From the UHGV virus genome UHGV-1616493: 10,396 nucleotides of DNA. One strand, written 5' to 3'. Under the pieces are notes generated by a model that was not told the origin of the DNA, did not search any database, and saw nothing but the letters and a program-made list of their open reading frames with translations. Made by a program: the position numbers and the translations under genes. Below are positions 1-10,387 of the stretch, in pieces (within the stretch, counting starts at the first letter, position 1; each line of letters begins with the position of its first letter). Source of the DNA: a virus.

Positions 1-17
1 AAGCAATGACCTGGTGG

Positions 18-182
18 TCCGTGACTTCCCTACGCTGGCATTATCCAGATCAGGTAATACGGGTATTTCTCAGCCTTCACAAAGAAGGGCACCCCGAGTC
101 ATGTACTATAAAATCAAAAGCTTGCGATTAATGCTCCTCATTAATCCCTGATCAGGATAGTAATGCCAGCGGGAAGTCTTGT
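18..182. repeat. Imperfect inverted repeat: arms about 18-53 and 148-182 flanking a roughly 94-bp core
   Basis: Left arm gtgacttccctacgctggcattatccagatcagg and the reverse complement of the right arm (cctgatcaggatagtaatgccagcgggaagtc) share GACTTCCC, GCTGGCATTA and CTGATCAGG blocks with small indels. Aligned by eye. Confidence 0.45.
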
Positions 183-221
183 AAACGGTAAAAGCGGCCC
201 TTTTGGTCTATGTGTGACAGG

Positions 222-251
222 TTGAGTGACACAATGTGTGCCATGTAGAAT
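222..251 (+). promoter_or_regulatory. Candidate sigma70 promoter for the 291..926 gene
   Basis: TTGAGT (222-227), 18-bp spacer, TAGAAT (246-251); lies about 40 bp upstream of the ATG with an AAGAGG Shine-Dalgarno at 283-288. Confidence 0.4.
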
Positions 252-290
252 GCTCTTAAGTCGTCAACTACCGCATTAAAAAAAGAGGTT

Positions 291-926
291 ATGATGGATT
301 TACAAGCATGGGATAACATTATCTCTATCGCTTCGAATGCTGTAACAGCGTTGAGTGTGGTTGGCGGCGTCATCTTCGGAGGGGTTAAACTTCAGGAGAT
401 TGTGAAGACGAGAAAAATGGAGCGGGCAATTGATTCAGCAATCGCTCTTAAAGAAGAAATTGATAGCACCAGAAGCCGTTACAATCGTATGCGCTTTGAC
501 TTAAACCGCATTATGACTTTTCTCGACACACTGGCGAAATCAGGACAAAAAGCCGACGAAGAAAGCTATTATCATATTCAAGAATCCTTGAAAGATATGA
601 CGGAAAATACCTTTCGCATTGGTAGCTCTTTCATCAAGTTAAGTCACTATAATGTTCTGATTAAAAAGGTTTCCTGGGAGCCATTCAACGCCCTTCTTCG
701 ATCTTCTGGTAATACGCAAATAGCCATCTCAAAACTGATGACTCTCATCATGCAGGCTTTGCTTAAAGCACAGATAACACCAGAAGAATTCATGGCAATA
801 CGTAACGCTTATGATGAACATGGCGCAATGATGAAAGATGTTAATCACGCTATCTCTGGATTAGATATCATTAAATTTGACAATCTTTTTGACTTCAGCA
901 AAGTACATAAAAAAAGCCGGGATTAA
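291..926 (+). CDS. Membrane-anchored hypothetical protein (about 210 aa); candidate moron or exclusion/defence gene
   Basis: Intact ORF with tandem ATGs at 291/294 after an AAGAGG SD. One N-terminal hydrophobic helix (IISIASNAVTALSVVGGVIFGGV) then a charged, helical-looking soluble domain. Visibly more AT-rich than the neighbouring phage genes, convergent to them, with its own promoter and terminator. No family recognised. Confidence 0.7.
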   Translation: MMDLQAWDNIISIASNAVTALSVVGGVIFGGVKLQEIVKTRKMERAIDSAIALKEEIDSTRSRYNRMRFDLNRIMTFLDTLAKSGQKADEESYYHIQESLKDMTENTFRIGSSFIKLSHYNVLIKKVSWEPFNALLRSSGNTQIAISKLMTLIMQALLKAQITPEEFMAIRNAYDEHGAMMKDVNHAISGLDIIKFDNLFDFSKVHKKSRD

Positions 927-950
927 CCCGGCTCTCATGTTTTCAGTTTT
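909..950. terminator. Bidirectional Rho-independent terminator shared by convergent genes
   Basis: AAAAAAA, stem AGCCGGG (915-921), loop ATTAA (contains the TAA stop of the plus gene), stem CCCGGCT (927-933), then T-rich CTCATGTTTTCAGTTTT. On the minus strand the stem is followed by TTTTTTT. Confidence 0.65.
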
Positions 951-1147
951 CGTTGTCGCTGTTCGTTGAGGTAGTACCTAATAGCGCTGTCGAATCCATG
1001 CGTATGGATGCGGTCAAGTAGGCTGGAACGACTACACTCAAGCCTGCGTGCTAACGCTGACATGTTGATAATCGCATCATCGCCCTTGCCATCTAGAATC
1101 CACTGCATCAGCGGCATGTTGCCAGTACCGATCAAAGCTAATTTCAT
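935..1147 (-). CDS. Small hypothetical protein (70 aa), last gene of the minus-strand array
   Basis: ATG at 1147 preceded by AAGGAG with a 6-nt spacer; the ORF-track start at 1198 has no such signal. The N-terminus MKLALIGTGNM resembles the start of a dinucleotide-binding protein, followed by a short helix-turn-helix-like stretch, so it may be a gene remnant. Confidence 0.45.
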   Translation of the reverse strand: MKLALIGTGNMPLMQWILDGKGDDAIINMSALARRLECSRSSLLDRIHTHGFDSAIRYYLNEQRQRKLKT

Positions 1148-1179
1148 ATGTATCTCCTTTCCTTTGGCTCGCCTGCAGC

Positions 1180-1196
1180 GGGGGCAATGCGCCCCC
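1180..1196 (-). other. GC-rich hairpin immediately downstream of the major capsid gene
   Basis: GGGGGC-aatgc-GCCCCC, 6-bp GC stem, beginning 14 nt after the capsid stop codon; no U-tract on the minus strand, so more likely an mRNA 3' stabiliser than a terminator. Confidence 0.35.
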
Positions 1197-1209
1197 AAAA
1201 TACGCTGTC

Positions 1210-2226
1210 TTACGCCGCGTCATCCATCGTAATTTTCAAAACGAAGTCTGGACGCATTGGGATCTGAATTTGTGATAGCTCGCTGACCACCTCATAATTC
1301 ATGAACTTATCACGCAGAACGTAATGGTAAGACGGATAAACCGGACCATTAGCAACGTCAGCATGACGGCTCGCCGGAGTCTGGTAAGTCATATAAGGTG
1401 AAAGGTCGCCTTCAACAACATTGGAGAACGTCGCCAGCATGTAGCCTTCACCATCTGCAATGCCGTATAGCGGATCGTCAACCTGAACTACAGTTACGCG
1501 CCCGATGTTGTATCGATCATATGCGCCCAAAGTGTCAGGGAAAATGATGTCACGGGACGTAGCACCAAACAGAGCCGCCTGATATGCGGTTGGGTTGCCT
1601 TGAATGGCGGTGAAAAGACTCGGACTCGCTAGCAGATAAACCTGCTTGATGCTGGAAGACCAGCCACCCAGATTTTTCTTCAGCAGCGTGACAGCGTTCT
1701 GCATCTCAGTAATAACGTTGGCACTGATGCCAGTTTTCACCACAGCAGACGGCTGGTTAATACCCCAGAAGGTTTGCCAGTTCAGATCAGGACCTTCACG
1801 AAGGTGTGTCGCCTCTACAGTATTGTGAAGCAGGCTCTGCGCCATGGCATATTCAACATCACGGCGGGTTTGCAGGTAGTGCTTCAGGGTATGATTAGCA
1901 ACTACATCTTCAGCGGTCATCTGGCGATTTGTTCCCGGCTGACGTTTCCCCTGCCAATCCTGGCTGGTGATGGTTGAGCTGTAGACATGCAGTGGAGCCT
2001 GAACAGTCACGTTAGCCGCTTTAGGGAAGTTTAGACCGGACATTTCAGAACCATAACGGGCAACAGATTTGGTCACTTCACGCTGCACATCTTCCAGTGT
2101 GTCGAGCGCGATGATTTGCGTATCACTTGGACGGCTGGTAAAGATCCCCAGGCTGGACAGAAGGAACCCCTCGCCGCTTGGCTTCACAAACTGACCGGAA
2201 AGGTTAGTAAAATCACTTAATTTCAT
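1210..2226 (-). CDS. Phage major capsid protein, lambda gpE-like (338 aa)
   Basis: Size matches E-family capsid proteins (about 340 aa). It sits 18 nt downstream of a 120-aa decoration-like gene, as in lambdoid D-E pairs. The C-terminal ...PMRPDFVLKITM resembles the ...PDEFVSVQLA end of lambda gpE. GGAG SD upstream of the ATG at 2226. Homology recalled from memory, not searched. Confidence 0.6.
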   Translation of the reverse strand: MKLSDFTNLSGQFVKPSGEGFLLSSLGIFTSRPSDTQIIALDTLEDVQREVTKSVARYGSEMSGLNFPKAANVTVQAPLHVYSSTITSQDWQGKRQPGTNRQMTAEDVVANHTLKHYLQTRRDVEYAMAQSLLHNTVEATHLREGPDLNWQTFWGINQPSAVVKTGISANVITEMQNAVTLLKKNLGGWSSSIKQVYLLASPSLFTAIQGNPTAYQAALFGATSRDIIFPDTLGAYDRYNIGRVTVVQVDDPLYGIADGEGYMLATFSNVVEGDLSPYMTYQTPASRHADVANGPVYPSYHYVLRDKFMNYEVVSELSQIQIPMRPDFVLKITMDDAA

Positions 2227-2244
2227 ATTGTTATCACTCCTTGA

Positions 2245-2607
2245 TTAGATTGCAGTGTTTGCGTCAGCAATGCGGTTGCCTTGCTTAACAAGGGCAGCGT
2301 AAGCAGCATCTTTTGCAGCAGCCGCTACAACCAGACCAGATGGATTGAACACACAGCCACGGTCTGAAATGACCAGGCTACGGGCATCACCAGCGATTTG
2401 ATTTTGCAGAGCTACAGCACAGTTATCAGCATCGGCTGCAACGTATGCCGCGCCAGTGGTCGGGTTAATCACATCACCACAAGTCACATCAGCAGCCAGA
2501 TCAAAGATCACGGTGCGCTTATGAAAGATCGGGCTATCGGTATAAACCAATACATCCTGTGGGGTTTTGCTTTCATGTTCGAATGCCATATTTTGTTGTA
2601 TCTCCAT
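2245..2607 (-). CDS. Head decoration-like protein (120 aa; possibly 113 aa from the second ATG at 2586)
   Basis: Small Ala/Gly/Val-rich protein directly upstream of the capsid gene and translationally close to it; position and size match lambda gpD-type decoration proteins. No strong SD at the first ATG. Confidence 0.45.
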   Translation of the reverse strand: MEIQQNMAFEHESKTPQDVLVYTDSPIFHKRTVIFDLAADVTCGDVINPTTGAAYVAADADNCAVALQNQIAGDARSLVISDRGCVFNPSGLVVAAAAKDAAYAALVKQGNRIADANTAI

Positions 2608-2621
2608 GCAATTTTTATAAT

Positions 2622-2726
2622 CCGGCGAATATGCCGGGTTGTGTTGAAAAAATACCGTCCATCGGACGGCATTCTTTTATTTGTATTCCCAACAGAAAAA
2701 GAGCCGGAGGCAGGAAAACGCCTGCC
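2622..2726. terminator. Cluster of three hairpins directly upstream of the capsid genes; the middle one is a bidirectional intrinsic terminator
   Basis: CCGGC-gaatat-GCCGG (2622-2637); CCGTCC-atc-GGACGG (2655-2669) flanked by CATTCTTTTATTTG on plus and TATTTTTTC on minus; GGCAGG-aaaacg-CCTGCC (2709-2726) followed on minus by a T-rich run. Confidence 0.45.
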
Positions 2727-2760
2727 CCGGTTGGTAGATCATCGGAGATGATGAAATTCA

Positions 2761-2792
2761 CCCGTTTACGGGTTAGCAACATGCGTTGCTAA
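2761..2792. promoter_or_regulatory. Adjacent palindromes, operator-like
   Basis: CCCG-ttta-CGGG (2761-2772) followed by TTAGCAAC-atgc-GTTGCTAA (2773-2792), perfect 8-bp arms with a 4-nt spacer, in the untranslated leader between the 713-aa gene and the capsid genes. Confidence 0.3.
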
Positions 2793-3250
2793 TAGCTTCA
2801 CGATGGTATTTTCTGATGGAGAGATTTGGAAAGCATGATCGGCGGGTCACGCTTCAGGAATGAGGGAGCACAGCAGCGGGAGACCTCATATCTTCGCTGC
2901 CGCACTCAATGCCAGTTTTCGTCTGGCAAGACGGCCTTCCGAGGATGAAAGGCTTTGGCAAATCTCCGATCCAAGGTCGGAGAAAATCTTTTCTGATACA
3001 GCCAGCGGCAATGGCCTAACCTTACCGTGAGAGGGTGCGAATATTGGCTGTATGAGAAAAGGCGCTCTGGGAAAAGCGCACTTTGATTCCTAAGGAGAAG
3101 GGAAAACATTTGGCTGTTGTAATTCACCTTGTATATTATTTTAACACGAATGATTATCATTTGCAACAACAAAAACAATAACATGGCGAATTCAACGGCC
3201 CTCTCTCGTGTGGGCCAATTTGCTGCGCCATTTTCGACGGAACGATGATT

Positions 3251-5392
3251 TTAGTCTGCAATCCCAAGGATGAGGTTATTCTGCGCGTGGTTGTTCTCCC
3301 TTATCTTGGTATCAACCAGCCCTGCGATCTTATCGTCATGGACAAACACATCCATCTGCTGATTAATGTTCGCTTGCCCGGTAACACTGACAGGAATCGG
3401 CTGTCGCAGCGTCATGCTGTCAATTGTCGGAACCGTAAACGTCGGTTGCTGGGGTGTCAGATAGTTCAGGCTAGGAACATTCAACGCTAGCGCTGGATCG
3501 TTATACGCCGTGCCTGAGCCAATATTGCTCGGTGCTGAACTATCCAGCCACGGGTAAATCTGCTTAAGCGTCTGACCGATGCTACGTGGATCAAAGCCTG
3601 TCTTTTCCTTAATCCAATCGGCAGCACCGTTTGCAGATTCATCTACCACGCTCGTATACACCGCATCCGGCAATGTCGCGCCTTTCTTAAGTTCTTCTCC
3701 GACTCGACCAGAGAAGGAGAGAATGTTGGTGGTTAGCTCACCAAGGGCAACGCCGAGGGCATCGGAAATTGGGATCAGTCCAGTCATCTTCTGACGTAGA
3801 GTTTCAGTATTGGCAGCGTACTGCCCCAGGCCTTCAACAAACGAGGCTGAGAAATGATCTGCAAGGCTGGTTTGCACTCGGTTGTACTCAGCACCTAACG
3901 CCGCCAGTTTATCGAGGTTGGCTTGCTGCGCATCAGATAGGGTCCATCCTTCAGAAGAGAGTTGATGCATACGCTGGATAAGTCCCTGCCCCTCATCATT
4001 GAACACTTCGAGGAAGACCGAACCATCATTCACAGCCTCAGCCAGGTGCCGGGTCTGGTTGTCCGTCCATTTGAAAGTTTTCTGCAACTGTTTCAGGTAA
4101 GTGATGAAGGTCGGAAAATCCAGCTTTTGCAGTTCTCCGATCACCTTCTGTGCTACCTTCTGGTTACCGTTGGTGGAGGTCAGCACATTGTTGATGATAT
4201 CTGCGAACTCGCCACCGCCGCTGAAATTCACCTGTCCAGTTTTCTTGTTACGTTTGAAAGAGCCGGTGTTTAACAATTCCCCGGCCTTTTCGGTTGTGTC
4301 CTTGTTGAGGTCAGCCAGCTTGTCAGCACTCAGTGAGTAACCAACACGGCTCATCGAGAGATCCTGAAGTGCAGCGAACTCAAGGTTGCTGATCCCGTAC
4401 TGCTGGAGTTTTTTCACATCGCGAGAGCGCTCAAGGCTTCCCTGGAGGGTCTGACCGACACGAGAAACGCCCATACTACCCACTAACGACGCACCACCAA
4501 TAACACCAGCAGCTGCAAGACCAGCTCTACCACCACGGCTTTCTGTGCGTACACGACCAGCACGAACACCTGCGGCTTTCTGCTCACGGGTCATACGCTG
4601 TTGCAGACGAGCCTGCTTGCGTAATTCGGTGGTGATACGAGCCATTTCGAAGCGGGTCTCTTCAACCGTATAGCGCTCTTCTTTCTGGGCTTTAAGTGCC
4701 TCTTTTGCTGCACTGATGGCTTTGTACCGGGTTGCAACGTCAGCGCCGTTCACGTTTGCCAGAGTCAGAGCGCTACGGCGCAAACTGTTGTAATAAGTCA
4801 CCTCGCGCTTAAGGCCTGCCTCTTTCTCACGCTGACGCTTCTCCTCCAAGGCCATCGCCTTTTTGGTGGCTGCGATGTCAGCAGCAACAGCGCCGTGACC
4901 ACGGTTCATCGCTGCATTTTGACGTGCCACCAGAGATGGATCGGAGTGAACTCCAGGCATGTTGGGATTGTAGGTCATTGCACGGGAGCGACTCGCCTGT
5001 CTCACCTTGTCAGATATCGCTGCTAGTCTGGCATTCTGCCGTGCGGCCTGTTCCTGCTGGGATAACTGACGCGCCTGTAATGAGGTCATTTTATTAGCGT
5101 GGGAGACTGCATCCCGTTCCATTTTGGCTTGTATCTGAGCTTGTTTCTGTTGCTGTTTTGACAATTGTTCAGCCTGGCGTAGCTTCGCTGTCTGGGCTTT
5201 CGCTGCGGCTAGTGCTGCTTTGCCTTCACTCTGGACGGTCCGCTTCTGGGCCTTCTCAAGCGCTTTAGCTGGTTTCTCATGAGCAGCCTTAAGCGAGATA
5301 ATCTTCTTTTTGGCTTTTTGATATGAGGCATCGTCTGTGATCCACGAGATTTCATTAACGGTGCTGGTAACAATCTTATTTGTGCCAGACAT
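3251..5392 (-). CDS. Large coiled-coil protein with a Gly-rich hydrophobic segment (713 aa); tail tape-measure-like, alternatively scaffold or ejection protein
   Basis: The N-terminal roughly 250 aa are rich in A/K/Q/E/R as in coiled coils. The central GLAAAGVIGGASLVGSMGVS segment resembles the Gly-rich hydrophobic patches of tape-measure proteins. The ORF track starts at GTG 5395, but ATG 5392 overlaps the upstream stop as TGATG (translational coupling), with GGGGG upstream. Confidence 0.45.
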   Translation of the reverse strand: MSGTNKIVTSTVNEISWITDDASYQKAKKKIISLKAAHEKPAKALEKAQKRTVQSEGKAALAAAKAQTAKLRQAEQLSKQQQKQAQIQAKMERDAVSHANKMTSLQARQLSQQEQAARQNARLAAISDKVRQASRSRAMTYNPNMPGVHSDPSLVARQNAAMNRGHGAVAADIAATKKAMALEEKRQREKEAGLKREVTYYNSLRRSALTLANVNGADVATRYKAISAAKEALKAQKEERYTVEETRFEMARITTELRKQARLQQRMTREQKAAGVRAGRVRTESRGGRAGLAAAGVIGGASLVGSMGVSRVGQTLQGSLERSRDVKKLQQYGISNLEFAALQDLSMSRVGYSLSADKLADLNKDTTEKAGELLNTGSFKRNKKTGQVNFSGGGEFADIINNVLTSTNGNQKVAQKVIGELQKLDFPTFITYLKQLQKTFKWTDNQTRHLAEAVNDGSVFLEVFNDEGQGLIQRMHQLSSEGWTLSDAQQANLDKLAALGAEYNRVQTSLADHFSASFVEGLGQYAANTETLRQKMTGLIPISDALGVALGELTTNILSFSGRVGEELKKGATLPDAVYTSVVDESANGAADWIKEKTGFDPRSIGQTLKQIYPWLDSSAPSNIGSGTAYNDPALALNVPSLNYLTPQQPTFTVPTIDSMTLRQPIPVSVTGQANINQQMDVFVHDDKIAGLVDTKIRENNHAQNNLILGIAD

Positions 5393-5820
5393 CACACCCC
5401 CTGATTGATATCGTAACCCAGACGCTCAAGCGCGGCGCGTTGTTCAGGTGTTAGCTCATCAAGACTTGCCTTCATCATGAGACTTACCGGACGCAGATTA
5501 GCGCTATAACCTTGGGCTTGGTGGCACAGAGCGATCCCTTTTTCCTTGATGGTTTTACCACTTTTTGGGGCTGGCTCGCTGGCTGTTGCAGTCGAAGCGG
5601 ACAGGTAACTCTGCACCGCCTCCGCCAATGCTTCTTCAGCGGATTTGTTCAGATCTTCCGGTTCGTCTGTTCCTGCGGTCATTGCTTCCCGGATACTGGC
5701 GCGGATTGCTTCAATGTTATTCATATTGTTATGTTTCCTGTAGAGGTCCAGGCCGTCACGAAGCCATTGGAGAACAGCTACCGCTAACGGCAGAAAGGAT
5801 AAATATTCAAATAGGGTCAA
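5392..5820 (-). CDS. Hypothetical protein (142 aa from TTG 5820; alternative ATG at 5724 gives 110 aa)
   Basis: ORF in the same reading frame as the upstream 173-aa ORF, separated from it only by the TAA at 5839-5841. No ATG start at the 5' end; an internal ATG at 5724 has AGGAAA 9 nt upstream. N-terminal hydrophobic stretch, acidic Ala-rich middle. Confidence 0.45.
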   Translation of the reverse strand: MTLFEYLSFLPLAVAVLQWLRDGLDLYRKHNNMNNIEAIRASIREAMTAGTDEPEDLNKSAEEALAEAVQSYLSASTATASEPAPKSGKTIKEKGIALCHQAQGYSANLRPVSLMMKASLDELTPEQRAALERLGYDINQGV

Positions 5821-5838
5821 GTTTCCCCGGCTGGGGTA

Positions 5839-6360
5839 TTAATAATGCAGTCGTGGTGATCGGCGTTGGGGCGCTGCCTGCTTGCGTGAAATAGTCTTCC
5901 GGTACTCAATGAACAACGGATCATCACTAACAGGCATTCGAGATGCCATTTCTTTTTCAGTGATTCCTTCACGCTTGAGCAGCGTTACCACAGTGAATAG
6001 AGGCAGTTGAAGGTCAGCACAGATTTTTGCCAGCATTGCGCCGGATTCGTAGTACATTCGGGCCATTCGCTTAGTAGCGTACTGACTGGTATTACTTATC
6101 TTGCGACAGCGAGGATTCCACGAGTTATCGTAAAGGCCTTTTACCAGGTCATACGGCAAGCGTAGGAGCAGCGCCGTTTTGCCTGGGGTGTAACCGTGAA
6201 CGAGCATTTTTTTAGCAGTCTCGATCAACGAGGTATCACGAGAGCGGGCCTTGTAAAAACGGGACAAATCAGGGGCGTCAGCACCGGATTTGTTTACCTC
6301 TGGTAAAGTGCTTCGCACCGTAAGGGTTTCAGCCGTCAGGCTGTTGGCAACATCACACAA
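5839..6360 (-). CDS. Hypothetical protein (173 aa), TTG start; possible DNA-binding or small-terminase-like
   Basis: TTG at 6360 preceded by GGAGG with a 5-nt spacer, 15 nt after the upstream stop. Basic protein with a helix-turn-helix-like stretch (LPLFTVVTLLKREGITEKE). Function not recognised. Confidence 0.5.
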   Translation of the reverse strand: MCDVANSLTAETLTVRSTLPEVNKSGADAPDLSRFYKARSRDTSLIETAKKMLVHGYTPGKTALLLRLPYDLVKGLYDNSWNPRCRKISNTSQYATKRMARMYYESGAMLAKICADLQLPLFTVVTLLKREGITEKEMASRMPVSDDPLFIEYRKTISRKQAAPQRRSPRLHY

Positions 6361-6374
6361 TTATTCCTCCAGTA

Positions 6375-7121
6375 TCAGAAAGGGATCGAGTCATCATAAT
6401 CAAGCGGCAGCTCATCTGCTGGGGCGTTAACCTGTTGTTCTACTGACTCCGGTGCGGGTACATGATAATTTTGAATAAACAGATTCATGCTGTCCTCATC
6501 GCTGCTGATACCATGAGAGAGACAAAACGCTTTTGCTTCTTCATCCAGTCCCCAATTGCGCCATCGCCTCAGCTTGGTGCCTAATTGTTCATCGGTATAC
6601 CTATCAGAAGCGTTCACCGCATCATCATTGGCAGGTACATCAGCATCGACAGGAATATCCACAACAGGTAGGCCGTCTGGTTTTCCAGCAACAGGCGCGG
6701 CAGGTTCCACCACGAAAGATTCCACATCACGTTTCTGCTCATTCTTACCGCTCTCCTCGGTTTCCACTTTTCTATTACTCACCTGCGTGGAATTATGATC
6801 GTCAAGAAAAACCATCAACGATGGATCGAGTTCGACCGGAGAAATTTTGTGTGTTCTCCCCTGCTCTTCCTCAAAAGTGATCATTCCCGCTTCACGAAGC
6901 TTGTTCCTGAAATTACGAACGGCTTCGGGCTTGCAGCCGCAACGTTTACCAATCATGCCAACAGACTCGTAATAAGTTCTGCCTGTTTTGTCATAGCTGT
7001 AAACCAGAGATAGCAAAATTTTCATGTTGCCATTAATGGTCAGGCCGTTGTACTCGGTAAGGTCGAGAATGCTGTATTCAAGTTTTACAAAATCCTTACT
7101 GTCCCGGTTCTGTTTGCTCAT
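6375..7121 (-). CDS. Winged-helix-like DNA-binding protein with acidic C-terminal domain (248 aa); candidate replication initiator or transcriptional activator
   Basis: ATG at 7121 with GGAG and a 6-nt spacer. The N-terminal roughly 100 aa look like an HTH/winged-helix fold (GKRCGCKPEAVRNFRNKLREAGMITFEE); the C-terminal half is acidic and ends ...DELPLDYDDSIPF. Overlaps the upstream 67-aa gene by 26 nt. Confidence 0.55.
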   Translation of the reverse strand: MSKQNRDSKDFVKLEYSILDLTEYNGLTINGNMKILLSLVYSYDKTGRTYYESVGMIGKRCGCKPEAVRNFRNKLREAGMITFEEEQGRTHKISPVELDPSLMVFLDDHNSTQVSNRKVETEESGKNEQKRDVESFVVEPAAPVAGKPDGLPVVDIPVDADVPANDDAVNASDRYTDEQLGTKLRRWRNWGLDEEAKAFCLSHGISSDEDSMNLFIQNYHVPAPESVEQQVNAPADELPLDYDDSIPF

Positions 7122-7299
7122 TCTGTTCTCCGTAAAGTGTCGCCTTGCTGGCTAATGCTGGTTTGATGTCTGGTGTGTTGTCGAAAATGTTCGCGGCAGT
7201 CTCCAAGATTTCATTACAGAGCCGTGCCAGGGGCTTGTCCTGCCTTTTGGCCTCAGCTAGTAGAGCCTGATAAACGTGCTGTTGAAATTTGATGTTCAT
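7096..7299 (-). CDS. Small ribbon-helix-helix-like putative transcriptional regulator (67 aa)
   Basis: ATG at 7299 preceded by GAGGAGG. The N-terminal pattern (beta-strand-like NIKFQQHVYQ, then two short helices LLAEAKRQ / LARLCNEILETAANIF) fits Arc/MetJ/CopG-type RHH proteins. Confidence 0.5.
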   Translation of the reverse strand: MNIKFQQHVYQALLAEAKRQDKPLARLCNEILETAANIFDNTPDIKPALASKATLYGEQNEQTEPGQ

Positions 7300-7386
7300 T
7301 CAAGTTGTCCTCCTCGTTTTAGGTACAAAAGACCTCCCGCCAGTGGTCGCCCAAAGGCGAACCGGCTCAGGTTTTGTTCAGTGTTG

Positions 7387-7833
7387 TTAGACTGCGGTTG
7401 CGGTCGGGAAGTCACCCGCACAGGTGTAACCGTAGGATTCCAGACGTTCCACACCATCAGTGGCGATCAAGAGCAAGATCACCTGTTCTGGTGTCAGGTC
7501 CAGATTCAGTTTTTCTCTATATAGCTCGCGGTAGCCCTGTAACACAGGATTCAGGATTTGCGTTAAGGAATTACCCTCAGCATATTTATTGCTCAGAGGC
7601 TTCAGCACCGTCTTAACCACTCGTGCCTGCTTCGCTTTCTTCCGCGCCTGCTTCAGGATTTGCAGGCAGACGGCGATCTGAGGAAGTCGAGCATGTACAG
7701 CGTCTGCCCCGCCGTTTCTACTAATGAAGGCCCACAAAGCTGATTTGGTGTATTTGCCGTTCAGGATGAGATCAGCGATCTGCTCGCCTGTCATAGTGGT
7801 CAGGTCGAGACGTTGGGATTTTGGTTTATTCAT
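7387..7833 (-). CDS. Hypothetical protein (148 aa), first gene of the minus-strand array
   Basis: ATG at 7833 with GGAG and a 6-nt spacer; preceded by a long AT-rich untranslated region. Predicted helical and basic; no family recognised. Confidence 0.55.
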   Translation of the reverse strand: MNKPKSQRLDLTTMTGEQIADLILNGKYTKSALWAFISRNGGADAVHARLPQIAVCLQILKQARKKAKQARVVKTVLKPLSNKYAEGNSLTQILNPVLQGYRELYREKLNLDLTPEQVILLLIATDGVERLESYGYTCAGDFPTATAV

Positions 7834-8049
7834 TGGGTTCTCCGTTCTGTTAAAAGAATTATTCGCGGAGGTTCTATTTGTAACCCATTTTGTATTGCCG
7901 TGAGGTTGACAAGGAATGTCGTGATGACGGCAGAATTATTCGAGGATTCGTAGGTAAATCATTACCCTACTAAAATCTATTGTATCAGATTTGTTTGTAA
8001 ATAGCAATCATTATCATGTAGCATTTTATAATGCATAATAATCACCATA

Positions 8050-8078
8050 ACATTACAAGTTTAAAAAATCTTTGTCAA
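8050..8078 (-). promoter_or_regulatory. Candidate sigma70 promoter driving the minus-strand array
   Basis: On the minus strand: TTGACA (8078-8073), 17-bp A/T-rich spacer, TAATGT (8055-8050). It lies in an AT-rich zone (about 7960-8080) with several imperfect palindromes, roughly 210 nt upstream of the first gene. Confidence 0.35.
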
Positions 8079-8286
8079 TAGTGCTAGATCGTTCTGTGAC
8101 GCGTTCTGCGGGGACTCGTCGTTATAGCAGTACCATCGTGTTACCCACACCATTTAAACGCCGTAGAGAGGCGCTGAGGAAGTCAGTTAGACAACCCGCG
8201 CCGCCCCGGAGTGAACCGGACAGATGCAAAGCAGTCCTCTCCGCCGTGCTCCGATCCACATATGGCGAACAAGTTCGCAGCTTCCA

Positions 8287-8470
8287 CACAGAGTGAGAGC
8301 GTAGCTCTCTGGCGTAGCCTGTCGGGTTACCCGAGTCACAGAGCGTAGCGATGTGTTAACGAGGGTTAGAAGGTCACGAGATGGCGCGGCTGTTTCACGT
8401 CAGCAAAGGTGAGCTTCTTACCACAAACATATCTGAAGTGGCTGACCAGCCATTGCAGAGCGGAGCGATG
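8287..8470. repeat. Dispersed GAGCGTAGC-type motif copies in a GC-rich non-coding block
   Basis: CAGAGCGTAGCGATG (8339-8353) and CAGAGCGGAGCGATG (8456-8470) match 14/15. GAGAGC-gta-GCTCTC forms a perfect hairpin at 8295-8309, and GGCGTAGC occurs at 8311-8318. Confidence 0.45.
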
Positions 8471-8581
8471 CAGAAGCATCACTATTAAAACTAACAGAAT
8501 GACCAACCGTCATTCCGTGCTCTCGACCTGGAGGTACTTTTCTTATCAGTTCTTTTATGGAGATTGTTATTTATTATTATT

Positions 8582-8672
8582 GTGCTCGAAAATCGACTAC
8601 CCCCTACTCGAAAATCGTGCAGGTAGGTGCTCGAAAATCGAGGGGGTGGGTACACGAAAATCGTGCAGGTAT
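8582..8672. repeat. Iteron-like array: four copies of CTCGAAAATCG phased at 22-23 bp, next to an AT-rich tract
   Basis: Copies at 8585-8595, 8607-8617, 8630-8640 and 8653-8663 (the last is CACGAAAATCG). Alternate units carry TCGTGCAGGTA (8615-8625, 8661-8671); the others carry inverted ACCCCCT (8599-8605) and AGGGGGT (8641-8647). AT-rich tract at 8541-8583. Confidence 0.6.
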
Positions 8673-9964
8673 CACCGGGTGAGAATTTTCCAAGTCATCC
8701 AAGCGACCAACGCACCGATGAAAACTTCTGGTTTGATATGTCCGCGTCATGCTTCAATGGCACAATCGACGGCAACACCTGAGGCGGTCCAGGCACCTGA
8801 TCCGCTCCGAGAATTGATCATCTCCCTCCCCCGCTTTCATCTGAAAATACCGACCATTCTCCGCGCTGGCTGAAGATTGGCAACCCTATACTAGTTTTCT
8901 GTGAAAATTTGGTGGATGATCTTTATCATTGGCTATCCTGCGAACAAAGTAGATTAAATACACCTCAAATAGCCTATAATCCGTAGTTAATCATGCTAAA
9001 GTGGTCACTAAACGTACAAATCACAAGTTTGTACCTATGGGCGTTATGGTGTGGTGCATGCAGCGAAGCCAGTAATGGCGCGGCCTAGGCGAATCCGCCA
9101 ATTGAATGGGTGCTAAACACAACCCACTTTCTGAACCATCTTTTTACAAAAAATAAAAAAGACACATTAAAACTAAAACAGATGTCCTCTGGTGGTTCCT
9201 GTATCGCGCTGTGGGATGTCGTGGATTATCGGTACGTCAGTTTACATCTGGGGGGATAACGCACTGTAGCGCTTCTGGTGGAGCGTAGAAGGGATTGGTG
9301 GGTTGGCTGTTTACATTGTTTTGGGAAATGGTACGAAACAGTGGCGGTCAGGCTCGTGAATATCACCAGGTGATGGCAGACCTTCAGCCCGTTGTGGTAA
9401 CGTCGGTGTAGTGGCTTTGTGTCTGCTGGTAAACAGAAAAAAGTGCTTTTATGGCGTTTGACACACTGGCAGCCTCAAAGGTCTGAAACCTGAAATTGTG
9501 TGGTGACCAGGCAAACTCATCCAAAATCCTTGAACAAGAGAACTCACCTCGAATCCTCCTGAATGCTTTCCTTCTGTTGGTGAAATCGCTGTTGTGTACC
9601 CAGCTTCGCGTCAACGTTCCGAAAAGTAATACCTGACCATTCCAGTCAAGTACTTATAAGAACCATTATGTTAAATAGACCAGAAAACGAACAGTAGAAT
9701 GCCCTATTGCGGCAAGTTTTCCCTGCTGTGATGCTCTACGGGATGAAGTGGTGAAATACGTTACTGGGCCTGTCGGCTCTGCGATATTTCAGCAAGAAGA
9801 TAAGAAATTATTGAGGGATCGTCTGTCACGTCAGGCACCTGGCCCAGAGAGCCGTAAGATATTTTCAGCAAGAGCATGTAAGCTGGATCGTCAAATAGCA
9901 GGGACATCCATGAGGTGGGGTAGATGAGTTGCCGGGAATTTTACCCGGCAGACCGTATGACAGA

Positions 9965-10387
9965 TTAGTTAAAGGTGCAGTTTCCGCCAGACGGTGCACC
10001 GATGAAAAACTGCATCTTTTCGCAAGTCACGGTGATCTTCTGGCCCTTTTCCAATTTCGACGCTTTCGCCTTTTCTGAATCAGACATACTCAGACTGACT
10101 GGCATGAAGCGATTACCGCTTTCAAGTTTAAGAACTACATCATCCGTGAAATTTTTTGTTATGTCCTGTACAGTTCCGGTTACTTCCACCTTACGACCAC
10201 CAATTTTGTCATCGGCTGCAACCTCGTTAGCTTTATAAAGTTCAGCCAGAGCTAGTGCTTTTGTACGGTAAATTGCATCATCAGAAGCTGGCACTTTGGG
10301 TTTACTATCGGCAACCTGCGATTGTTCCGGATTAGTCATACTAGGGAAGGTGCGAACAAGTTCCTGATATGAGATCATCATATTCAT
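9965..10387 (-). CDS. OB-fold (tRNA_anti-like type) domain protein; N-terminus may lie beyond the window edge
   Basis: The motif pattern ...LYKANEVAADDKIGGRKVEVTGTVQDI...KLEKGQKITVTCEK... matches my memory of the tRNA_anti-like OB-fold family. The frame stays open from the ATG at 10387 to the window edge at 10396, so the real start may be upstream. Confidence 0.5.
   Translation of the reverse strand: MNMMISYQELVRTFPSMTNPEQSQVADSKPKVPASDDAIYRTKALALAELYKANEVAADDKIGGRKVEVTGTVQDITKNFTDDVVLKLESGNRFMPVSLSMSDSEKAKASKLEKGQKITVTCEKMQFFIGAPSGGNCTFN

What the first reader, a model, noticed from the sequence alone, without database searches (positions are those of the whole stretch)
222..950. Self-contained, AT-rich gene for a single-pass membrane protein convergent on the capsid operon
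The 291..926 gene has its own promoter, shares a bidirectional terminator with the phage array, is visibly more AT-rich than the neighbouring capsid genes (by eye, not computed) and encodes one N-terminal transmembrane helix plus a roughly 180-aa soluble domain that I cannot place in a family. That is the usual signature of a prophage moron. Such cargo at module ends is often superinfection-exclusion or abortive-infection related, so this is the best single-gene candidate here for an undescribed defence function.
Basis: partly seen in the sequence, partly recalled or inferred. Interest (0 to 1): 0.65.

Follow-up and report, generated by a model that had tools for sequence, protein, structure and literature searches.

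The report
Variable membrane-protein gene on satellite-like island
A real, AT-rich, stand-alone gene at the end of a small capsid-carrying chromosomal island encodes an uncharacterised protein with a predicted membrane anchor; it is a plausible but untested phage-resistance candidate, because it resembles no known defence or other protein family.

Summary
Window 291/294..926 (+) is a genuine gene under purifying selection (dN/dS about 0.1-0.2). It has 39.8% GC against about 50% for its neighbours, a promoter-like site, and a bidirectional hairpin terminator shared with the convergent capsid operon.

The host element is not a prophage. It is a 13.4-kb integrase-bearing island in the thiM TPP-riboswitch leader, with capsid and decoration genes but no terminase, portal or tail genes.

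The predicted protein is bitopic (N-out, C-in). Its weakly hydrophobic membrane helix is nearly invariant, and the invariant Asp/Ser/Thr/Gly residues lie on one face. The cytoplasmic four-helix bundle diverges to 21-36% identity, and two conserved aromatic residues mark the C-terminal tail.

The family is tiny (14 representatives among 1.84 billion proteins) and all named members are Enterobacterales. It sits at the att- or integrase-proximal edge of such islands, and closely related islands lack it. It has no hit in Pfam, PHROGs, NCBIfam, PADLOC, PDB, phage, plasmid or IMG/VR collections.

"Moron-like accessory gene" is supported. "Defence gene" stays an inference: I favour a phage-triggered membrane effector, at low confidence. 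The alternative cargo in the same slot is not known defence. Interest is moderate.

The parts
10..106 (-). TPP riboswitch of the thiMD leader. The island is inserted here. This is context, not part of the gene.
   Evidence: Rfam RF00059, 73.6 bits. It is annotated as a riboswitch and duplicated at the far end of the island.
30..100 (.). att core: a direct repeat of about 71 bp that bounds the island. The island's left end is at about window 101.
   Evidence: Alignment of the left and right island ends.
222..251 (+). Sigma-70-like promoter candidate, TTGAGT-18 nt-TAGAAT, for the gene.
   Evidence: Consensus scan, 9 of 12. It is conserved in E. roggenkampii L008 and Pectobacterium L015. Function was not shown.
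285..288 (+). Shine-Dalgarno GAGG, 5 nt upstream of ATG 294.
   Evidence: Read from the sequence. Most homologues start at the equivalent MDLQ.
294..926 (+). Coding sequence of the 210-aa protein. The alternative in-frame start at 291 gives 211 aa, and residue numbers in this report use the 211-aa numbering.
   Evidence: ORF list, RefSeq annotation, purifying selection with dN/dS 0.06-0.2.
318..386 (+). Residues 10-32: a weakly hydrophobic, amphipathic membrane helix. Invariant D8, S12, S15, T19, G26, G30 and K33 lie on one face. Predicted topology is N-out, C-in.
   Evidence: Hydropathy and flank charges. Helical periodicity of conservation: 0 of 20,000 shuffles reach the observed value. Between clades pN is 0.065-0.23 while pS is 0.49-0.83.
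411..866 (+). Residues 41-192: a cytoplasmic up-down helical bundle that is hypervariable between clades (pN 0.5-0.58).
   Evidence: AlphaFold2 pLDDT above 90. The 28%-identical Klebsiella allele has the same helix positions. Only generic four-helix-bundle matches were found.
867..899 (+). Residues 193-203: conserved C-terminal tail IIKFDNLFDFS. F196 and F202 are invariant across the family.
   Evidence: Alignments A1, A4 and A8.
912..936 (.). Bidirectional intrinsic-terminator hairpin shared with the convergent capsid operon. It also marks where the conserved island backbone begins.
   Evidence: Terminator scan on both strands. Conserved in other loci. Sister islands align from window 909 onwards.
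935..1147 (-). 70-aa helix-turn-helix-like protein, the last gene of the capsid operon. It belongs to the island backbone and is not a dedicated partner of the target gene.
   Evidence: It is 99% identical in E. coli islands that lack the target gene.

Best explanation
The gene is stand-alone accessory cargo at the att-proximal end of a capsid-encoding, satellite-like integrative island. It encodes a bitopic inner-membrane protein.

Predicted architecture:
- A 9-residue periplasmic stub.
- One weakly hydrophobic membrane helix, whose invariant Asp/Ser/Thr/Gly/Lys stripe faces away from the lipid-facing side.
- A cytoplasmic four-helix bundle. In the model of the Klebsiella allele, its first helix is continuous with the membrane helix.
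- A short conserved aromatic tail.

The soluble domain has no conserved polar or catalytic residues, so the protein is probably not an enzyme.

Proposed mechanism: a phage-exclusion protein of the sensor-effector type. It would be made in the integrated state. The fast-diverging cytoplasmic bundle would recognise a phage-made protein. That event would be passed along the continuous helix to the invariant membrane helices, which would pack through their polar stripe into an oligomer that leaks or depolarises the membrane. The infection would abort, protecting the island-carrying population.

Shown here: the gene is real and under selection, it is accessory and mosaic, and the pattern of conservation is as described.
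Predicted here: topology and fold.
Inferred only: expression in the integrated state, oligomerisation, any sensing, membrane damage, and any anti-phage effect.
For: Accessory and foreign:
- GC is 39.8% against about 50% for neighbours.
- Islands with 91% identity over window 909-9680 lack the gene.
- It is present in only 2 of 5,426 complete E. coli genomes.
- One copy is frameshifted.

Consistent position at the edge of mobile elements:
- Next to the att site at thiM in E. coli, E. roggenkampii and Pantoea.
- 48 bp behind the integrase gene in Kosakonia and K. pneumoniae capsid islands.
- Behind a truncated integrase gene, beside a prophage with GtrABC genes, in E. hormaechei.
- Retained intact as an orphan beside thiM in Pectobacterium.

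Constraint pattern:
- The first 35 codons keep pN at 0.065-0.23 while synonymous sites approach saturation (pS 0.49-0.83). The remainder reaches pN 0.5-0.58.
- Invariant residues lie on one helix face, about 180 degrees from the hydrophobic moment. No shuffle of 20,000 reaches the observed periodicity.

Cassette-like mosaic:
- The upstream types, the N-terminal block, the variable middle and the terminator are shuffled among loci.

Fold and chemistry:
- The fold is kept at 28% identity, and the membrane helix is modelled as continuous with bundle helix 1.
- In the soluble domain only A50, F196 and F202 are invariant.

No dedicated partner gene was found.

Background knowledge, not tested here: satellites and prophages commonly carry anti-phage genes in variable slots near att or int.
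Against: - No sequence or profile similarity to any of 5,027 PADLOC models, for this protein or for 10 diverse relatives. There is also none in Pfam, PHROGs or NCBIfam.
- The fold is a generic four-helix bundle that says nothing about function.
- The 'guilt by location' test failed. In sister islands the same slot holds an 82-aa repeat protein, a DUF3606 protein, a 92-aa ORF or a 604-aa ORF, and none reaches a credible match to a known defence family; only two weak chance-level hits (E 0.006-0.01) appeared.
- The membrane helix is marginal on the Hessa scale, at +2.2 to +3.8 kcal/mol across the family, so insertion itself is a prediction.
- The promoter is only a consensus match and is absent from the integrase-linked loci.
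- There are no expression, localisation or phenotype data of any kind.
Confidence: 0.3

Rival explanations
1. Superinfection exclusion at the entry step, which is non-lethal. The anchored protein would sit in the inner membrane and block genome translocation of incoming phage. It could do so by binding a conserved inner-membrane component through its invariant helix, or by capping the ejection channel on the cytoplasmic side through its variable bundle. The cell would survive.
For: - The protein is small and membrane-anchored, and is encoded next to the integrase gene or att site of a temperate-type element. From background knowledge, that is the classical position of lactococcal Sie2009-type and similar genes.
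- An invariant helix paired with a variable domain fits 'constant host partner, variable phage partner'.
- The same island carries an OB-fold protein that matches a PHROG annotated as Sie-like, with E = 1e-22.
Against: - No PHROG or Pfam Sie family is hit by the target protein or its relatives.
- Only about 9 residues are predicted to face the periplasm, so any block would have to act from the cytoplasmic side.
- No relatives occur in 50,697 phage genomes or 2.9 million IMG/VR contigs, whereas Sie genes are typically phage-borne.
Confidence: 0.2
2. A function in the island's own life cycle. Examples are control of lysis timing by pairing with a helper holin in the membrane, interference with the helper, or membrane tethering of replication or assembly.
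For: - The gene keeps the same position, convergent on the end of the capsid operon and sharing its terminator, in island relatives from several genera.
- A Gly/Ser/Thr-rich, weakly hydrophobic helix is also typical of holin, antiholin and SAR-type segments (plus background knowledge).
Against: - Near-identical islands lack the gene entirely.
- One copy is a pseudogene.
- Intact orphan copies persist where the island has gone or decayed.
- It is transcribed opposite to the structural operon and has a foreign composition.
- The annotated island shows no lysis genes, although nine of its products are only 'hypothetical protein'.
Confidence: 0.15
3. A cargo gene with no phage-related role, such as a membrane-stress or host-physiology factor, or a selfish addiction-type membrane toxin.
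For: - The alternative cargo in the same slot consists of small proteins of unknown role, one of them a repeat protein with a weak Con-6-like match. They are not defence genes.
- No defence homology was found.
Against: - The contrast between an invariant helix and a fast-diverging domain swapped as a cassette suggests an arms race rather than housekeeping.
- The family occurs only at edges of mobile elements and is very rare: 4 of 185,579 species-representative genomes.
- No antitoxin-like partner is linked to it.
Confidence: 0.2

Closest known systems
Prophage and satellite 'morons' or accessory-gene slots (HK97/lambda morons; the variable slots of P4-like satellites and PICIs that hold anti-phage systems)
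   Same: A single gene with its own terminator and a promoter-like site. Its composition is foreign. It sits between a conserved backbone and the att or int end, and closely related elements lack it.
   Different: The carrier is neither a prophage nor one of the four satellite families I know (P4-like, PICI, cfPICI, PLE). None of the alternative occupants of the slot is a known defence gene. Expression from the integrated element was not shown.
Membrane-anchored superinfection-exclusion proteins (lactococcal Sie2009 family, HK97 gp15, T4 Imm, P22 SieA)
   Same: A small protein with an N-terminal membrane anchor, encoded next to the integrase or att region of a temperate-type element, with alleles that vary strongly between elements.
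   Different: No sequence or profile similarity. The bulk of the protein is predicted to be cytoplasmic rather than periplasmic or external. It is not found in phage genomes.
Transmembrane effectors of abortive-infection systems (RexB; the membrane effectors of CBASS, Pycsar or retron systems; SLATT-type domains)
   Same: A conserved membrane segment with a polar, small-residue face suited to oligomer or pore formation, joined to a cytoplasmic non-enzymatic domain.
   Different: One helix rather than two to four. It is a single gene with no signal-generating partner. It has no PADLOC hit, and SLATT proteins appear only as non-significant fold matches with probability about 0.2.
Four-helix-bundle sensor domains of chemoreceptors and histidine kinases (Tar/Tsr-type 4HB)
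   Different: Those domains are periplasmic and lie between two membrane helices. This one is predicted cytoplasmic, follows a single helix and has no output domain. The matches are no better than those to de novo designed bundles, and Pfam shows no 4HB hit.

Membership tests
Moron / accessory cargo of a temperate mobile element | Present in one element but absent from closely related elements, at a fixed position between backbone genes and the element's end | tested here: met
   E. coli islands H3-H12 align at 91% over window 909-9680 but not over 1-908. Klebsiella and Raoultella islands carry other small genes in the slot.
Moron / accessory cargo of a temperate mobile element | Nucleotide composition distinct from the neighbours | tested here: met
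   GC is 39.8% against 49-52% for the capsid-operon genes.
Moron / accessory cargo of a temperate mobile element | Own promoter and own terminator | tested here: inconclusive
   The terminator hairpin at 912-936 is clear and conserved. The promoter is a 9-of-12 consensus match, not enriched over shuffles, conserved in 3 loci, and absent in the integrase-linked loci.
Moron / accessory cargo of a temperate mobile element | Expressed while the element is integrated and repressed | not testable with these tools
   No transcript data are available.
Known anti-phage defence families (PADLOC-DB v2.0.0) | Profile match to a protein of a known or candidate defence system | tested here: not met
   The only hit is a 14.6-bit chance-level match to a methyltransferase model. 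Nothing is consistent across the 11 diverse members. Models released after 2023 could not be searched.
Known anti-phage defence families (PADLOC-DB v2.0.0) | Sits in a slot that holds recognised defence systems in sister elements | tested here: not met
   The alternative occupants (82-aa, DUF3606, 92-aa and 604-aa proteins) reach no credible match in PADLOC.
Superinfection-exclusion proteins (Sie/Imm/gp15 types) | Homology to a described Sie family | tested here: not met
   No PHROG or Pfam hit for the target or its relatives.
Superinfection-exclusion proteins (Sie/Imm/gp15 types) | Membrane anchoring | tested here: inconclusive
   Kyte-Doolittle mean is 1.64-1.93 with consistent charge asymmetry in all 11 representatives, but the Hessa sum is +2.2 to +3.8 kcal/mol. 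This is a prediction only.
Superinfection-exclusion proteins (Sie/Imm/gp15 types) | Blocks phage DNA entry without affecting adsorption | not testable with these tools
   This needs infection assays.
Holin / antiholin | Encoded in a lysis cassette next to an endolysin; a small protein with a charged C-terminus | tested here: not met
   No gene in the island is annotated as a lysis gene (nine products are only 'hypothetical'). The protein is 210 aa with a folded 150-residue bundle. The gene is convergent on the capsid operon.
4HB_MCP-type sensor domain | Pfam 4HB_MCP match and a periplasmic location between two membrane helices | tested here: not met
   No Pfam match. There is a single N-terminal helix with the C-terminal part predicted inside the cell. 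Fold similarity is generic.
Capsid-forming PICI (for the carrier island) | Island encodes portal, protease, connector and small-terminase genes in addition to the capsid gene | tested here: not met
   Only major capsid, a D-like decoration protein and a TMP_3-like 714-aa protein are recognisable.

The most novel reading that the evidence does not exclude
The gene founds a new family of single-gene anti-phage proteins restricted to Enterobacterales. An invariant pore-lining membrane helix would be driven by a hypervariable cytoplasmic four-helix-bundle sensor that is exchanged like a cassette. The family would occupy a fixed 'immunity locus' of a previously unclassified family of phage satellites that encode only a capsid and a decoration protein.
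Probability: 0.25. Interest if true: 0.6.

Novelty: new member of a known kind. Interest (0 to 1): 0.4.

Why it matters
If the protein does exclude phage, it would add a minimal, one-gene system to the defence catalogue. The effector (an invariant membrane helix) and the specificity element (a swappable helical bundle) would be physically separable, and natural allelic series are already available for swap experiments.

It would also show that a so far unclassified family of capsid-encoding islands carries host-protective cargo, as P4-like satellites and PICIs do.

If it does not, it is one more orphan moron. The practical value of this work is then the clean definition of the gene, its family and its carrier island.

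Tried and rejected
Family and fold assignment, all without result:
- Profile libraries (Pfam, PHROGs, NCBIfam, PADLOC), tried on the protein alone and on 11 diverse relatives at a permissive E-value. Only scattered coiled-coil noise appeared, and nothing was shared by more than 2 members.
- PDB by sequence profile: nothing credible.
- tblastn against phage and plasmid collections, and an IMG/VR scan: no relatives.

Ideas rejected:
- DNA-level explanation for the conserved N-terminus (att site, promoter or recombination site). Conservation starts exactly at the ATG, and synonymous sites diverge to pS 0.5-0.8.
- The 70-aa convergent neighbour as a dedicated partner or antitoxin. It is island backbone, 99% identical in islands that lack the target, and it is separated from the target in Klebsiella.
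- Relatedness to the 210-236-aa proteins beside thiM in E. coli A11 and N921. They are unrelated proteins of other elements that use the same site.
- Spanin or signal peptide. The charge distribution predicts N-out, C-in, and there is no basic n-region.

Tests that gave no support:
- Guilt by location. No known defence genes occupy the slot in sister islands.
- Literature searches for this island type or a similar protein found nothing relevant.

Full report

The ORF at 291..926 (+) exists. RefSeq annotates it as hypothetical protein WP_236917608.1 in two complete E. coli genomes that match the window at 100%.

The likely start is ATG 294. GAGG at 285-288 lies 5 nt upstream of it, and most homologues begin MDLQ.

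It is a genuine gene. Among homologues that are 71-96% identical, Nei-Gojobori dN/dS is 0.06-0.2 in both the N-terminal 35 codons and the remainder.

Its GC content is 39.8%, against 49-52% for the adjacent capsid-operon genes and 48.3% for the window.

A hairpin at 912-936 scores as an intrinsic terminator on both strands, with the stop codon in its loop. It recurs in Klebsiella loci.

A TTGAGT-18-TAGAAT match at 222-251 is the only plus-strand promoter-like site upstream. It is not statistically remarkable: the region has 5 sites against 2.5 +/- 2.0 in shuffles. It is, however, conserved in E. roggenkampii and Pectobacterium.

The convergent neighbours on the minus strand are a 70-aa helix-turn-helix-like gene, a major capsid gene (Phage_cap_E, phrog_29) and a lambda-D-like decoration gene.

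**2. What is the carrier element?**

It is not a prophage. The window is part of a 13.4-kb island inserted in the TPP riboswitch leader of thiMD.

- The riboswitch is duplicated at both ends, and a direct repeat of about 71 bp (window 30-100) bounds the element.
- A 451-aa tyrosine recombinase sits at the far end.
- Window 107-205 is about 85% identical to the native sequence upstream of the thiM riboswitch in other E. coli. The island therefore brings a replacement thiM promoter region, and the target gene's promoter candidate diverges from it.
- The island has a capsid gene, a decoration gene, a 714-aa protein with tape-measure-like matches, an initiator-like helix-turn-helix protein, four iterons (8582-8671) and an OB-fold protein.
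- It has no recognisable terminase, portal or tail genes.
- Its capsid protein is at most 24% identical to anything in 50,697 phage records.
- Only 14 of 5,426 E. coli genomes carry the island family.

I therefore call it satellite-like. It fails the cfPICI gene set, and I found no description of it.

**3. The gene is accessory and sits in a variable slot.**

Ten E. coli islands at another site (the ygeQ / tRNA-Gly region) align at 91% with window 909-9680 but not with 1-908. They carry two unrelated small genes there.

Klebsiella and Raoultella islands with 85-95% identical capsid proteins hold other genes in the same slot: an 82-aa repeat protein, a DUF3606 protein and sometimes a 92-aa ORF. 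This is so whether the island ends at thiM or at a DUF6538-type integrase.

The target gene is in only 2 of 5,426 E. coli genomes and in 4 of 185,579 species-representative genomes. One copy, in Enterobacter sp. RIT637, is frameshifted.

**4. The family and where it is found.**

An exhaustive HMMER search of 1.84 billion representatives found 14 proteins. A profile search of 5.8 billion clusters found 74, and every one that carries an organism name is from Enterobacterales. There are no relatives in phage, plasmid or IMG/VR collections.

Genomic contexts seen:
- At the thiM-side edge of capsid islands in E. coli and E. roggenkampii.
- At the edge of capsid islands beside a pseudouridine-synthase gene in K. 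aerogenes.
- 48 bp downstream of a DUF6538-type integrase gene in Kosakonia and K. pneumoniae capsid islands.
- Behind a truncated integrase gene beside a prophage in E. hormaechei.
- In a decayed island in Pantoea, where two riboswitch copies lie 5.7 kb apart.
- As an intact orphan beside thiM in Pectobacterium, with a single riboswitch and no island.

A distant E. coli relative (178 aa) shares mainly the N-terminal 60 residues. It overlaps an upstream 283-aa ORF at the edge of a different element.

The 70-aa neighbour is island backbone, not a partner.

**5. The protein.**

*Membrane segment.* Residues 10-32 have a Kyte-Doolittle mean of 1.6-1.9 in all 11 diverse representatives. The N flank carries a net charge of -1 to -3 and the C flank +1 to +4, which predicts N-out, C-in. 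The segment is 48-57% Gly/Ala/Ser/Thr/Asn, and its uncorrected Hessa sum is +2.2 to +3.8 kcal/mol, so it is marginal as a membrane helix.

*Conservation pattern.* The invariant residues D8, S12, S15, T19, G26, G30 and K33 fall at 60-120 degrees on a helical wheel. The hydrophobic moment points to about 280 degrees. No shuffle of 20,000 reaches the observed periodicity of conservation.

*Constraint.* Conservation starts exactly at the ATG. Between clades, the first 35 codons have pS 0.49-0.83 but pN only 0.065-0.23. The remainder reaches pN 0.5-0.58. The constraint therefore acts on the peptide, not on the DNA.

*Fold.* AlphaFold2 models residues 41-200 with pLDDT above 90, as helices 41-84, 90-119, 126-157 and 164-192. 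A K. pneumoniae allele that is 28% identical gives the same helix positions, and its membrane helix is modelled as continuous with bundle helix 1 (residues 3-83).

*Chemistry.* In the soluble part only A50, F196 and F202 are invariant, so an enzymatic role is unlikely.

**6. Mosaic structure.**

Nucleotide identity to the window, by segment:

| Locus | Upstream | N-terminal block | Middle | Downstream |
|---|---|---|---|---|
| Pectobacterium | 78% | 79% | 59% (near the 46% shuffle baseline) | unrelated |
| K. pneumoniae | baseline | 83% | 60% | 72% |
| E. hormaechei | baseline | 81% | 61% | 78% |

Two upstream types exist: a thiM-promoter type, and a type made of the integrase 3' end plus a hairpin. 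Both combine with both protein clades, and Buttiauxella has both in tandem.

The locus therefore behaves as a cassette with conserved ends and an exchangeable specificity region.

**7. Interpretation.**

Shown here: this is a real, selected, accessory, stand-alone gene at the edge of mobile elements.

Predicted here: the product is a bitopic membrane protein with a helix built for helix-helix packing and a fast-diverging, non-enzymatic cytoplasmic bundle.

My favoured reading is a phage-exclusion protein. The bundle would sense a phage product, and the invariant helices would assemble into a membrane lesion (confidence 0.3).

Rivals:
- A non-lethal block of genome entry (0.2).
- A role in the island's own cycle (0.15). 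Its absence from sister islands, a pseudogene copy and surviving orphans argue against this.
- Cargo unrelated to phage (0.2).

Points against any defence reading:
- No similarity to any PADLOC model.
- The failed guilt-by-location test.
- The complete lack of expression or phenotype data.

**8. Verdict.**

The moron-like status is supported, with the correction that the carrier is a satellite-like island. The defence idea remains a reasonable, testable hypothesis.

The family matches no model in any profile library searched, and the literature searches found no description of it, but many orphan candidates of this type exist. I rate the interest as moderate (0.4).

Noticed in passing
window 10-230; L001 12010-12106 and 25379-25475: The island is inserted in the TPP-riboswitch leader of thiMD and bounded by a direct repeat of about 71 bp. 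It carries its own copy of the thiM promoter region, about 85% identical to the native E. coli sequence, so thiMD is probably transcribed from island DNA in carriers. Other, unrelated elements use the same site in E. coli A11 and N921.
   Followed up: partly
window 8582-8671, within the ORF-poor stretch 7834-9964: Four iteron-like repeats with core CTCGAAAATCG, spaced 22-23 bp apart, lie in a 2.1-kb region with no annotated gene. This is probably the island's replication origin. It lies about 1.5 kb from the helix-turn-helix initiator-like gene at 6375-7121.
   Followed up: partly
window 1210-5395; L001 12100-25400: The carrier island encodes a major capsid protein (at most 24% identical to any of 50,697 phage records), a lambda-D-like decoration protein and a 714-aa TMP_3-like protein. 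It has no recognisable terminase, portal, protease or tail genes. It fits none of the P4-like, PICI, cfPICI or PLE gene sets as I know them. It occurs in 14 of 5,426 E. coli genomes and in Klebsiella, Raoultella, Enterobacter, Pantoea and Kosakonia.
   Followed up: partly
window 9965-10387 (-), cut at the window end; full gene L001 21965-22717: A 250-aa OB-fold (tRNA_anti-like) protein near the integrase end matches PHROG 8545, annotated 'superinfection exclusion Sie-like' (E = 1e-22). It may be a second cargo gene of the same island.
   Followed up: no
L006 10702-12516 (-); L012 10689-12503 (-): In K. pneumoniae and K. aerogenes islands, a 604-aa ORF lies between the target gene and the 65-aa backbone gene. 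It has no Pfam or PADLOC match. It is another unexplained occupant of the cargo slot.
   Followed up: partly
L023-L026, 9169-10537 (E. coli): A distant relative (P0065, 178 aa, listed in 258 blocks of the contig index) shares the invariant N-terminal helix but has a different C-terminal part. It overlaps an upstream 283-aa ORF by 20 nt, at the edge of an element with tape-measure, Dit-like and serine-recombinase genes. The N-terminal module may be reused with other partners.
   Followed up: partly
window 2608-3250: A gap of about 640 bp with no annotated gene separates the decoration gene from the 714-aa gene. It holds only short ORFs on both strands, and Rfam gave no hit at gathering threshold.
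   Followed up: no
window 211-243: By eye, two copies of TGTGTG(A/C)CA lie 24 nt apart (211-219 and 235-243), and a short inverted repeat ACACA-A-TGTGT lies at 229-239. Both overlap the promoter-like site and are largely conserved in Pectobacterium. This could be an operator. Significance was not tested.
   Followed up: no
L020 376-1012 (Enterobacter sp. RIT637): A copy of the target gene that is 96% identical carries a frameshift about two-thirds of the way along. It is a pseudogene there.
   Followed up: no
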